Assembly (NCBI RefSeq): GCF_044324875.1
Contig: NZ_CP172185.1
Length of the DNA stretch: 64,000 nucleotides
Reading direction: 5' to 3' (one strand)
DNA from: Escherichia coli
Lineage (GTDB): Bacteria > Pseudomonadota > Gammaproteobacteria > Enterobacterales > Enterobacteriaceae
The position numbers were made by a program. Below, piece by piece: positions 15,900 to 18,800 of the stretch. Numbering within the stretch: the first letter of the stretch is position 1; every line of letters begins with the position of its first letter.

Positions 15900-18800
15900 T
15901 AATAGCGGAAACGGAATGGGGAAACTCATTCCGTTTTTGTTTATCGCCTTAGACGGCAAAAGCGCTGTCGCCCACCTGCGCTTGCGCATACCAGGCCATA
16001 AGCTCCGTGGTTCCTGGTTCTCCTTCCGCTGGCGCCCAGTGCGCATAGTCATCGGCAGCCACGGGTTGATAGCCACCGTGTTTTACTTCAAAAATTATGC
16101 CACCGGTATCCAGCGACAGCACGGCATGCCAGGTTCCTGCGGCCATCTCCAGCACCGTACAGGTTTCCCCCAATATCGCCCGATGGGTGACGGTACCCCG
16201 ATCGTCAAAATTCAGCACCACGAAACGACCCCTTAATGGCAACAGTAGTTCGAAGGTGTGAGGGTGTCGGTGCGGGCGCACGTAGGTTCCTGGTCTATTT
16301 CTGGTTTAAAATGGATACCTGATCCTGAACGTTTTCTGCCATCCACGATCCGTAAACGCAATAAACCCTTTGACCATCAGAGTGTCTCATTTGACACTCA
16401 TCACCACGTCGGATGTTGTTACGACCACAGACGCAACAGTAACCTCTGGATAATTTAATCTTCGTTCTTATTTTTATTAATATACTGCGTTATAAAAATG
16501 AGCGATTTTTGATAGTGGTAATTTTATTGTGCTTTAGAATGCTCCCTGGGTAATATAATTTATTAAACAGGAGTGTAAATGTTTCCATTAAATGATCTGT
16601 CGTTAAAAGCTCAGTCGGTTCAATTAAATAAAATCACATCTAATACTGAGTCTACGATAAAACAACAAGATTTAGTATCTGATGATGCAATGATAAATGA
16701 ATTATCAAGTGAGTTAGTCAGTTGTCTTGGAAATGGTAGGTTTACACCAATTAGTGAAGACAGCAAATTACTGAATATGCTGTCAGAACTTAAGTTGTTG
16801 CACTCAGAATATTTCGGATGGGGTGATTATAGTCTCTGGTTTCAAGGTTTCTCGATTTATGATAAGACAGGTTTTATCATGATAGAAAAAAGTCAGGGAG
16901 CTGGTAATCCACCCATTCGGCATACATTAGAGTTTATATCGACTAATATTGCAGAGTTTCTAGACAAGTTAACGAAAATTACAGATGCCAGACTTTGCAA
17001 AGGTTTCTGTGACTGGGCTAATTCAGTCAAAGAAGGCGCATCGAATGACTTCAAAGAAAATGTGGATATAGCATTGGTGAGATTGTTTAAATGTGTTGAA
17101 CTCCACAATAGTAAACTTGACTTAACAGATCTTCACTTGGGGTCTTTGCCACCTCTTCCAGACTGGATTGAGGTGCTTTCTCTTCGTCATAATGGCCTTG
17201 CCACAATACAGATTCCCAAATTCTGCAAAGAATTAGAACTCGATTTTAATAATTATATGGTATTTCCAAAAGTATCCGATGGAATTACCCAGGTCTCCGT
17301 AGATAATAATCTGATATCGCGTGTTGACTCATCTCCGTCAAAGGCTATGAAAATTTTTATTTATCGCAATAAAATATGGTAAATACCAGCAATGCCTGAG
17401 ACTACTAATCTGTTTAATTGTGGCGATAATAAGATAAAAAAATTCAATACTTCCCAAATCATCTGGAGACAGCACGTATGGAGTATAATATTGAGGTTGT
17501 CCCTGCGATACATAGCAATTTAAAATTACTTTTTATAGAATGTTATCCTATTAAAGAGGAGTTTTTAATGCCGTGGACTTTGACAGACATTACCTATGAA
17601 ATATCGCAGCGAAAATATATTGTTACGAATTCCGCTGATTATGATAAATATTCTGACATAGTCAAAAGGGGCGTAATAGATGGTAAGAATTAAATAGTTA
17701 GGCGCAATTGTGTCACTGGAATAGAGGTTTCTTGTGGCGCATGTGGAAGGAGCGTCTAAGGACAAGACATATGCGGCTGGTGATGAATAAAGGCGCAGCA
17801 CGTCGAATGCAAGAATGTGCTGCGTCTGGCTCATGGCAATTCATTATTTTCGCATAGCGTCAATGACAAAAATCGACTGTGTGGATCAAGTTGATAATCA
17901 GCAAACGGTTCGCAATCAACGAAACCATGATTCAAATAAAGTTGATGGCAGGCCGTAAATCCAGCCTGTGTACCCGTTTCTAAGCTCAGGCGATGAAGGC
18001 ATCTGTCATGGGCGACCTGCAAAATGTGGCGTAAAATCAGACTGGCGACACCTCGACGTAAATAATTTGGCGCGGTACGCATTGATTTCAGTTCGCCATG
18101 TTTATCATCCAGCAACTTCAGCGCACCAATTCCTGCGAGTTGTTCGCCTTCCCATACTGACCAGAATGTCACTGTCGGGTTACGTAATTTTTGCACATCT
18201 AAAGCATGACTGCTTTCGGGGGGAGACTGCTGCAGCATGCCGGAAATATGGTAAGCCACTAATGCTTGCACTGCTGGATGGGTGAGATCATCTGTTTTAA
18301 TCGTGAACATGACGATTCCGTATTGGTGTTATTTTTGCAATATGCCAACAGGTACTGAAATCTTTGTCTAATAGAGATTTCTTATGACGCAGTATTGTTG
18401 ATCAATAATCTCCAGGCTTATCAGATAGGTTGAATTAACTCCGCGCCCTGGTTTTTAACATTACCCACCGCGCGCGATACCGGGTGCCAGGTGAACTGGT
18501 TTGCTGGCACACAGCCACTGGTAGCGATTTCTGAGGCTTCTTTACCGCCAATATCTTGCCGCATCCATTCCCGCGCAGCTTCTGGCGACAGTACCAGTGG
18601 GCGGCGGTCATGAATATCTACCAGACCCTGGTCTGCTGCTGCAGTGACAATCAAAAATCCTTCGGCTTCGTCACCGCGCTCGAACGGTGTGCTACCTATC
18701 GCGGCCATAAAAACAGGTTGTCCATCAGCACGATAGATAAAATAAGGCTGCTTTTTGTCGCCTTCTTTTTTCCACTCAAACCAGCCATCGGCAAAACAGA

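What the first reader, a model, noticed from the sequence alone, without database searches (positions are those of the whole stretch)
15949..16305. Transposition-unit right end cuts into wbuC: degenerate IRR and 5'-truncated cupin gene
The unit ends at acgtaggttcctgg (8 of 14 matches to the true IRR), directly followed by the TCTAT duplication. The wbuC reading frame on the minus strand stays open from its GTG at 16279-16281 upstream through the IRR-like end and the TSD, then meets a stop (plus 16306-16308) in chromosomal DNA with no further start. This is what an N-terminally truncated passenger gene (orf477-delta) looks like; the 110-aa product may be non-functional.
Basis: partly seen in the sequence, partly recalled or inferred. 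Interest (0 to 1): 0.5.

Follow-up and report, generated by a model that had tools for sequence, protein, structure and literature searches.

The report
Truncated wbuC at ISEcp1 unit end

Summary
It is textbook mobile-element anatomy, not a discovery.

- **The unit.** Window 13291-16293 is a 3,003-bp unit: ISEcp1, an 80-bp spacer, blaCTX-M-1 and a wbuC remnant. It is flanked by a 5-bp TCTAT duplication.
- **Empty site.** The flanks joined with one TCTAT match 2,671 E. coli chromosomes in a single piece. The site lies between fliE and the yedN-like pseudogene.
- **Same unit elsewhere.** It is 100% identical, with the same two ends, in the best-matching plasmids (IncI types among those inspected) and in other chromosomes, each with a different duplication.
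- **The truncation.** Full-length WbuC is 158 aa in Kluyvera-type native loci and across Enterobacterales. The window's homology starts at codon 45, so 44 codons are missing, 22 of them invariant.
- **The surrogate end.** The 14-bp end ACGTAGGTTCCTGG is native wbuC coding sequence (P45-V49). It matches the true IRR at 8/14, which is chance level, and the IRL complement at 10/14.
- **Inherited, not local.** The truncation came with the unit. About 37 different chimeric ORFs in public data join at this same point.
- **Existing annotation.** RefSeq already marks the remnant "incomplete; missing N-terminus", and the literature calls it orf477-delta.

The remnant is probably non-functional, but this was not tested.

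The parts
13286..13290 (.). Left copy of the 5-bp target-site duplication, TCTAT
   Evidence: The empty site in L013 has a single TCTAT.
13291..14946 (+). ISEcp1 (1,656 bp): IRL at 13291-13304, tnpA at 13477-14739, true IRR at 14933-14946
   Evidence: IS1380-family transposase model NF033539, 329.6 bits over 1-418/419. The DNA is 100% identical to annotated ISEcp1 in plasmids.
14947..15026 (+). 80-bp spacer typical of blaCTX-M-1 units. The last 48 bp are native Kluyvera-type sequence. The first 32 bp have no counterpart in the native loci examined.
   Evidence: The 48 + 32 bp description is in PMC6202452.
15027..15902 (+). blaCTX-M-1
   Evidence: CTX-M family model, 623 bits. Nucleotide-identical to genes annotated CTX-M-1, WP_013188473.1.
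15904..15940 (.). Strong hairpin between the convergent bla and wbuC stop codons. It is followed by a T-run on the + strand and is a probable bla terminator.
   Evidence: MFE -24.5 kcal/mol, z = -5.1, 0 of 200 shuffles as stable. Function is inferred.
15949..16293 (-). wbuC (orf477) remnant: native codons 45-158 plus the stop, 345 nt. Codons 1-44 are absent.
   Evidence: Alignments A1 and A2. TIGR04366 is matched only over profile 42-132 of 132. RefSeq annotates the same 345 nt as a pseudogene 'missing N-terminus' in other copies.
15949..16281 (-). The 110-aa ORF from the internal GTG (native Val49). Some annotations call it a CDS (WP_064754192.1). AGGA lies 6 nt upstream of the GTG.
   Evidence: The Shine-Dalgarno-like AGGA was read directly from the sequence. 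Expression was not tested.
16280..16293 (+). Surrogate right end (IRR-alt) ACGTAGGTTCCTGG. It is native wbuC codons P45-V49 read on the opposite strand.
   Evidence: 8/14 to the IRR and 10/14 to the IRL complement. The native sequence is identical in L004, L007, L008, L009, L010 and L012. It is the same end in other copies.
16294..16298 (.). Right copy of the 5-bp target-site duplication, TCTAT
16299..16308 (-). Chromosomal DNA read through by the open wbuC frame (16294-16305, four codons that include the TSD), then the in-frame TAA at 16306-16308. It lies in the 99-nt integrase (intG-like) remnant of the fliE-yedN region.

Best explanation
Window 13291-16293 is one copy of the widespread 3,003-bp transposition unit ISEcp1 / 80-bp spacer / blaCTX-M-1 / wbuC-delta (orf477-delta).

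How the unit formed: ISEcp1 moves adjacent DNA when its transposase pairs the IRL with a surrogate right end downstream instead of its own IRR. For this unit the surrogate end is a 14-bp stretch of native Kluyvera wbuC coding sequence (codons 45-49). Every copy therefore carries wbuC without its first 44 codons and without its promoter.

What happened here: the unit transposed as a block into the E. coli chromosome, probably from a plasmid such as the IncI-type plasmids that carry the identical unit. It landed between fliE and the yedN-like pseudogene and duplicated TCTAT. The truncation predates this insertion.

State of the remnant: it keeps the cupin His/Glu motif region. It lacks 22 invariant N-terminal residues and the predicted first barrel strand, so it is most likely an inert passenger fragment.

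Shown: unit boundaries, the duplication, the empty site, the identity of the unit elsewhere, and the position of the truncation. Inferred: the plasmid donor, derivation from a longer capture, and loss of function.
For: - Duplication and coordinates.
- Empty site: the joined flanks with one TCTAT match 2,671 E. coli genomes over at least 80% of their length. The best is 99.8% in one piece, and the L013 sequence reads ...ACTCACTCTATTTCTGG....
- Same unit elsewhere: 100% identity over all 3,003 bp in the 30 best plasmid hits, and matches ending at window 16293/16294 in E. coli genomes.
- Independent copies: L001 has TSD TTATA, L015 TAATA and L016 TTGTG.
- Full-length WbuC is 158 aa, and the WbuC profile is covered only from position 42 of 132.
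- Native loci read GCC ATG GAA|CCA GGA ACC TAC GTG, and the window's homology begins at CCA.
- About 37 different chimeric ORFs in public data all join at X|PGTYV.
- PGAP flags the remnant 'incomplete; missing N-terminus' over the same 345 nt.
- Longer ISEcp1-80 bp-blaCTX-M-1 units with an intact wbuC exist (L008 and L011, 0 nt different over 1,347 nt).
- Of plasmids, 2,508 carry the retained part and 402 carry the lost 5' part.
- The AF2 model of the full-length protein places helix 6-17 and strand 36-43 in the lost part, and the fold matches cupins.
- Literature: the same unit is described for CTX-M-1, -3 and -15, with 48/80/127-bp spacers (PMC6202452). AT-rich 5-bp duplications are reported in PMC9325909, and orf477-delta in PMC7276707.
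Against: - The similarity of the surrogate end to the IRR (8/14) is no better than chance. Seven other sites at or above 8/14 lie between the IRR and this end and are not used. Sequence alone therefore does not explain why this site is chosen.
- Two other copies (L002 and L014) have 6-bp rather than 5-bp matching flanks.
- Loss of function is not shown. The remnant keeps the HRHPH...E motif, has an AGGA 6 nt before the GTG, and has a promoter-like site upstream on the minus strand (16579-16552).
- The AF2 model has low confidence over residues 1-40.
Confidence: 0.95

Rival explanations
1. The 110-aa GTG ORF is a complete small WbuC-type cupin gene, as some annotations list it (WP_064754192.1), and not a truncated one.
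For: Older PGAP and submitter annotations call a 333-nt CDS 'WbuC family cupin fold metalloprotein'. The score against TIGR04366 (97.7 bits) exceeds the curated cutoff of 42. AGGA lies 6 nt upstream of the GTG.
Against: All chromosomal homologues are 157-163 aa, with 22 invariant residues in positions 1-44. The profile match starts at position 42 of 132. The native DNA continues in frame upstream of the junction. Newer RefSeq records mark the remnant as a pseudogene.
Confidence: 0.02
2. The truncation was produced locally in this strain, by a deletion or an IS-mediated rearrangement after a longer Kluyvera segment had arrived.
For: Longer ISEcp1-blaCTX-M-1 units with an intact wbuC exist (L008 and L011). 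Other truncation points are seen in public proteins (P0025, P0046, P0047, P0048).
Against: A perfect 5-bp duplication flanks exactly 3,003 bp, and the empty site is otherwise uninterrupted. The identical end occurs in the best-matching plasmids and in other chromosomes.
Confidence: 0.02
3. The unit really ends one base further (CCTGGT, 3,004 bp), because the base after CCTGG is T, as in native wbuC, in all six copies inspected. The duplications would then be 4-5 bp.
For: The window, L001, L002, L014, L015 and L016 all have T after CCTGG. L002 and L014 would then have clean 5-bp duplications, AAAAA and TATTA. PMC5320061 reports TATTA for an asnS-adjacent copy.
Against: Among about 37 chimeric ORFs, the residue before P45 includes C, H, D, F, Y, M and N. 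Their codons cannot end in A, so T is not always present. The CTX-M-15 unit in L017 also has T after its end, but there it belongs to the published TCATA duplication. Four of the six copies would be left with 4-bp duplications. ISEcp1 targets are AT-rich (PMC9325909), which explains the frequent T.
Confidence: 0.05

Closest known systems
ISEcp1-blaCTX-M-1-orf477-delta transposition unit of IncI1 and related plasmids
   Same: 100% nucleotide identity over all 3,003 bp, the same IRL, the same surrogate right end and the same 80-bp spacer.
   Different: Only the location differs. Here the unit is chromosomal, between fliE and the yedN-like pseudogene, with TSD TCTAT. None of the 5,426 complete E. 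coli genomes searched has the unit at this site.
2,971-bp ISEcp1-blaCTX-M-15-orf477-delta unit (classically in Tn2 tnpA, TSD TCATA)
   Same: The same architecture, and a right end at the same wbuC codon (P45). The remnant is again 345 nt. The literature describes the units as the same apart from the spacer (PMC6202452).
   Different: The spacer is 48 bp instead of 80 bp. There are 18 nucleotide differences over 1,315 nt. Two of them lie inside the surrogate end (ACGTAGGTCCCAGG against ACGTAGGTTCCTGG), and both are synonymous in wbuC.
Native bla-wbuC locus of Kluyvera-type chromosomes (aminotransferase / bla / wbuC / 210-aa ORF / DUF2058)
   Same: The retained 1,315 nt differ by 3 nt from native locus L012 and by 15 nt from L004. 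The convergent bla and wbuC arrangement and the 46-nt intergenic hairpin are preserved.
   Different: The native locus has the complete 477-nt wbuC and no ISEcp1. The window lacks codons 1-44 and everything beyond them.
Longer ISEcp1-blaCTX-M-1 units with a complete wbuC (L008, L011)
   Same: Identical ISEcp1, 80-bp spacer, bla and wbuC 3' part (0 differences over 1,347 nt).
   Different: They carry 3,060 bp of Kluyvera-type DNA, including the full wbuC and two further ORFs. Their distal end has no recognisable duplication in the loci seen.

Membership tests
ISEcp1 (IS1380 family) transposition unit | Intact ISEcp1 with an IS1380-family DDE transposase and 14-bp terminal inverted repeats | tested here: met
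   NF033539, 329.6 bits over 1-418/419. IRL at 13291-13304 and IRR at 14933-14946, 12/14 complementary. The DNA is identical to annotated ISEcp1.
ISEcp1 (IS1380 family) transposition unit | Passenger DNA contiguous with the IRR and ending at a surrogate end with partial similarity to the IRR | tested here: met
   The 1,347-bp passenger segment ends at ACGTAGGTTCCTGG, which scores 8/14 to the IRR and 10/14 to the IRL complement. The similarity itself is at chance level.
ISEcp1 (IS1380 family) transposition unit | 5-bp AT-rich target-site duplication flanking the IRL and the surrogate end, with a matching uninterrupted empty site | tested here: met
   TCTAT lies on both sides. The empty site with a single TCTAT is found in 2,671 genomes.
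ISEcp1 (IS1380 family) transposition unit | The same unit found at other sites, each with a different duplication (evidence of repeated movement as a block) | tested here: met
   L001 has TTATA, L015 TAATA and L016 TTGTG. L002 and L014 have 6-bp matching flanks. About 37 different junction contexts occur at the same codon.
ISEcp1 (IS1380 family) transposition unit | Transposition activity of this copy | not testable with these tools
   This needs a mating-out or transposition assay.
WbuC family cupin fold metalloprotein (TIGR04366 / orf477) | Full-length match to the family profile and a length like the homologues (about 158 aa) | tested here: not met
   Only profile positions 42-132 of 132 are matched. 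Only 114 of 158 codons are present. It is a gene fragment, not a full member.
WbuC family cupin fold metalloprotein (TIGR04366 / orf477) | Cupin barrel with a conserved His/Glu cluster (RPHRHPHTFE ... WH) | tested here: inconclusive
   The motif residues are retained. The AF2 model of the full-length protein puts helix 6-17 and strand 36-43 in the missing part, with low confidence over residues 1-40.
CTX-M-1 beta-lactamase gene | Sequence identity to the reference allele | tested here: met
   Nucleotide-identical to genes annotated CTX-M-1, WP_013188473.1. blaCTX-M family model, 623 bits against a cutoff of 570.

The most novel reading that the evidence does not exclude
The remnant may not be inert. 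Read-through from chromosomal DNA, together with the AGGA-N6-GTG signal, could yield a 110-aa cupin fragment that keeps the His cluster and has some activity or fitness effect. That would help explain why this particular end persists in most mobile CTX-M-1-group units.

A second, milder reading also remains open. The wbuC codon 45-49 site may be an intrinsically preferred surrogate end that ISEcp1 used independently on different Kluyvera alleles. This is suggested by the two end variants, ACGTAGGTTCCTGG and ACGTAGGTCCCAGG, and by the near-identical native counterpart of the CTX-M-1-type sequence (L012).
Probability: 0.05. Interest if true: 0.35.

Novelty: already known. Interest (0 to 1): 0.08.

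Why it matters
The result has practical value only.

- It fixes the exact boundaries of the resistance unit, 13291-16293.
- It shows that the unit reached the chromosome by ISEcp1 transposition, not by recombination.
- It shows that the 'WbuC' CDS that annotation pipelines sometimes call here is a gene fragment and should be treated as a pseudogene.
- A chromosomal blaCTX-M-1 is stably inherited, which matters for surveillance. The insertion site appears unrecorded among 5,426 complete E. coli genomes.
- Nothing here changes the understanding of ISEcp1 or of WbuC.

Tried and rejected
- **Unit ending at CCTGGT.** I tested whether the unit ends one base further, because T follows CCTGG in 6 of 6 inspected copies. 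This was rejected. The chimeric ORFs show residues before P45 whose codons cannot end in A.
- **Exact-pattern scan of genome contigs.** A scan for the 25-nt right end found nothing. Species-representative genomes gave no extra junctions.
- **Ends of the longer units.** I looked for the distal ends and duplications of L007, L008 and L011. No matching 5-bp duplications and no convincing IRR-like ends were found, so their mode of formation is left open.
- **Solved structures by sequence.** The search with full-length WbuC found no relative, with a best E-value of 0.13. Only the fold comparison shows cupins.
- **Significance of the IRR-like match.** The match does not hold up statistically.

Full report
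**What is in the sequence**

Reading 12400-16900 and listing ORFs gives this layout.

| Coordinates | Feature |
|---|---|
| 12876-13220 | fliE |
| 13286-13290 | TCTAT (left duplication) |
| 13291 | ISEcp1 IRL, CCTAGATTCTACGT |
| 13477-14739 | 420-aa transposase |
| 14933-14946 | true IRR, ACGTGGAATTTAGG |
| 14947-15026 | 80-bp spacer |
| 15027-15902 | 291-aa beta-lactamase gene |
| 15903-15948 | 46-nt intergenic stretch |
| 15949-16281 | minus-strand ORF of 110 aa starting at GTG |
| 16280-16293 | ACGTAGGTTCCTGG |
| 16294-16298 | TCTAT (right duplication) |

Translating the minus strand gives ...F * T R N R P G T Y V R P H R H P H.... The frame is therefore open from 16305 down, has no start codon above the GTG, and is closed by TAA at plus 16306-16308.

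The end matches the IRR at 8/14, as stated, and the complement of the IRL at 10/14. The 8/14 match is not significant. P is 0.010 per position, and 40 sites at or above 8/14 lie in the 5 kb after the IRR. Seven of these lie between the IRR and this end and are not used.

**Identity of the parts**

- The transposase matches the IS1380-family model end to end (329.6 bits).
- The beta-lactamase matches the CTX-M model (623 bits).
- The minus-strand ORF matches the NCBIfam WbuC cupin model TIGR04366, but only over profile positions 42-132 of 132.

**It is a discrete, mobile block**

- The 3,003 bp from 13291 to 16293 are 100% identical over their whole length to the 30 best plasmid hits, which carry blaCTX-M-1. 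The two inspected, L001 and L002, are IncI1/B/O and IncI-gamma/K1.
- A query that included the chromosomal flanks matched E. coli plasmids and chromosomes only from window 13291 to 16293/16294, apart from a few chance bases.
- Joining the two flanks with a single TCTAT gave one-piece matches in 2,671 E. coli genomes. The best was 99.8% identical.
- The best of these, L013, reads GGGCAAACTCACTCTATTTCTGGTTTAAAATGG across the site.
- The site lies at the 3' tip of a 99-nt integrase remnant, between fliE and a DUF5503 (yedN-like) pseudogene, upstream of yedL.
- The window therefore contains a precise insertion of 3,003 bp plus a 5-bp duplication. This is the signature of ISEcp1 transposition.
- Other copies of the same 3,003-bp unit have their own duplications: TTATA in L001, TAATA in L015 (ydgJ-blr) and TTGTG in L016 (an F-type plasmid). 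L002 and L014 have 6-bp matching flanks.

**The wbuC gene is truncated, and where**

- A protein search returned 1,230 relatives. Those from chromosomes of Kluyvera, Raoultella, Buttiauxella, Pantoea, Hafnia and others are 157-163 aa, mostly 158 aa, which is the classical 477-bp orf477.
- The alignment shows that the window's product aligns from P45 onward.
- In a 39-sequence alignment, 22 of the first 44 positions are invariant. The missing part is therefore conserved, not a variable leader.
- The exact 158-aa protein P0004 is encoded in native-type loci with the order aminotransferase / bla / wbuC / 210-aa ORF / DUF2058 (L003-L006, L009, L010, L012). It is also encoded in longer ISEcp1-linked units (L007, L008, L011).
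- The DNA alignment shows the native sequence ...GCC ATG GAA CCA GGA ACC TAC GTG CGC.... The window, L001 and L002 share it only from CCAGG onward, and each has unrelated DNA before it.
- The 14-bp 'degenerate IRR' is thus native wbuC codons 45-49 on the opposite strand. The GTG 'start' is native Val49.

**The truncation is inherited, not local**

- About 37 different chimeric ORFs in the protein collection have unrelated N-termini that all fuse at X|PGTYV. Some N-termini are fragments of DacD, of an HTH protein or of a glycosyl hydrolase.
- Each chimeric ORF is a separate insertion context of a unit ending at this same base.
- RefSeq's current annotation marks the same 345 nt as 'WbuC family cupin fold metalloprotein, incomplete; missing N-terminus' in other copies. 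Older records call the 333-nt GTG ORF a CDS.
- In PLSDB, 2,508 plasmids carry the retained 345 nt, but only 402 carry the 5' part that is missing here.

**Relation to other units**

- The CTX-M-15 unit in L017 has a remnant of the same length and ends at the same codon, followed by TCATA and a Tn3-family tnpA fragment. This matches the published TCATA site in Tn2 (PMC6202452).
- Its end reads ACGTAGGTCCCAGG, two synonymous differences from the window. One of the two is present in native locus L003.
- Over 1,315 nt the two units differ at 18 positions.
- Native locus L012 differs from the window by only 3 nt and is identical to the 48-bp-spacer unit L007.
- L008 and L011 carry ISEcp1, the same 80-bp spacer and an identical blaCTX-M-1. 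They also carry 3,060 bp of Kluyvera-type DNA with a complete wbuC.
- The simplest reading, which is an inference, is that longer captures came first. The short unit then arose when the transposase used the nearer surrogate end inside wbuC, and has spread as a block since.
- It cannot be settled here whether the CTX-M-1-type and CTX-M-15-type units reached the same end independently.

**Is the remnant functional?**

This was not tested directly.

Evidence against function:
- The native promoter region is lost.
- 44 codons are lost, 22 of them invariant.
- An AlphaFold model of the full-length protein (mean pLDDT 76.9, low over residues 1-40) puts a helix (6-17) and the first barrel strand (36-43) in the lost part. 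Translation from Val49 would begin inside the second strand.
- The model matches cupin structures such as oxalate decarboxylase and sugar 3,4-ketoisomerases.

Evidence for possible expression:
- AGGA lies 6 nt before the GTG.
- A promoter-like match lies at 16579-16552 on the minus strand, which is only a consensus hit.
- The HRHPH...E motif is retained.

I judge the remnant to be an inert passenger, with modest uncertainty.

**Literature**

- The unit ISEcp1-blaCTX-M-orf477(delta) is described repeatedly. [quoted passage not shown]
- AT-rich 5-bp duplications are reported for chromosomal units (PMC9325909).
- The 2,971-bp orf477-delta unit is named in PMC7276707 and PMC5320061.

**Verdict**

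The feature is already known and already annotated. Its only local novelty is the chromosomal site, which none of the 5,426 complete E. coli genomes searched shares.

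Noticed in passing
window 14947-14978: The first 32 bp of the 80-bp spacer between the ISEcp1 IRR and blaCTX-M-1 (TTAGACTATAAATAGAAAAAGGCGTTTTGACA) have no counterpart in the native Kluyvera-type loci. Their homology begins exactly at the 48-bp point (GACTATTCATG), and the 48-bp-spacer unit L007 joins the IRR directly to that point. The CTX-M-1 and CTX-M-15 units therefore share the same left Kluyvera boundary, and the 32 bp are of other or unknown origin.
   Followed up: partly
L017:8036-8054 (E. coli MLI105, CTX-M-15 unit) compared with window 16280-16293: The CTX-M-15 unit ends at the same wbuC codon, but its surrogate end differs by two synonymous bases (ACGTAGGTCCCAGG against ACGTAGGTTCCTGG). 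Native locus L003 has one of the two changes. This may mean that the same end was used on different Kluyvera alleles, or that the end mutated.
   Followed up: partly
L012 (metagenome contig, native aminotransferase-bla-wbuC context) compared with window 14979-16293: A native, ISEcp1-free locus differs from the window by only 3 nt in 1,315. It is identical to the ISEcp1 unit in L007, and its bla differs from CTX-M-1 by one residue (V80A). This is a near-exact chromosomal source allele for the CTX-M-1-type unit.
   Followed up: partly
L002:1495-1500 and 4504-4509; L014:1495-1500 and 4504-4509: Two other copies of the 3,003-bp unit have 6-bp matching flanks (TAAAAA and TTATTA) instead of the usual 5 bp. 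In all six copies inspected, the base after the unit is T, as in native wbuC. The L014 site (ompF-asnS) resembles the asnS-adjacent TATTA site reported for Enterobacter kobei (PMC5320061).
   Followed up: partly
L017:5079-8049 (E. coli MLI105 chromosome): A different ISEcp1 unit (blaCTX-M-15 with a Tn3-family tnpA fragment) sits between yedK and yedF. This is only about 2 kb from the site used in this window, in the same fliE-yedD region, and yedL appears to be absent there.
   Followed up: no
window 15904-15940: A very stable hairpin (-24.5 kcal/mol, z = -5.1) lies between the convergent blaCTX-M-1 and wbuC stop codons, followed by TTTTTGTTT on the + strand. It is probably the native terminator, carried along with the unit.
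   Followed up: partly
window 16295-16393 (minus strand) and 16579-17382: The insertion lies at the 3' tip of a 99-nt integrase (intG-like) pseudogene remnant, whose TAG stop falls inside the duplicated TCTAT. Downstream is a DUF5503 (yedN-like) gene that is frameshifted in other strains. Here an ORF of 267 aa is open.
   Followed up: no
proteins P0020, P0024, P0028, P0042-P0044: Public protein databases hold many chimeric 'WbuC family' proteins whose N-termini are fragments of unrelated genes (DacD, an HTH protein, a lipoprotein, a glycosyl hydrolase) fused at P45. These are annotation artefacts created by this unit end. One large cluster, P0022, is named 'tryptophan synthase subunit beta like protein'.
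   Followed up: partly
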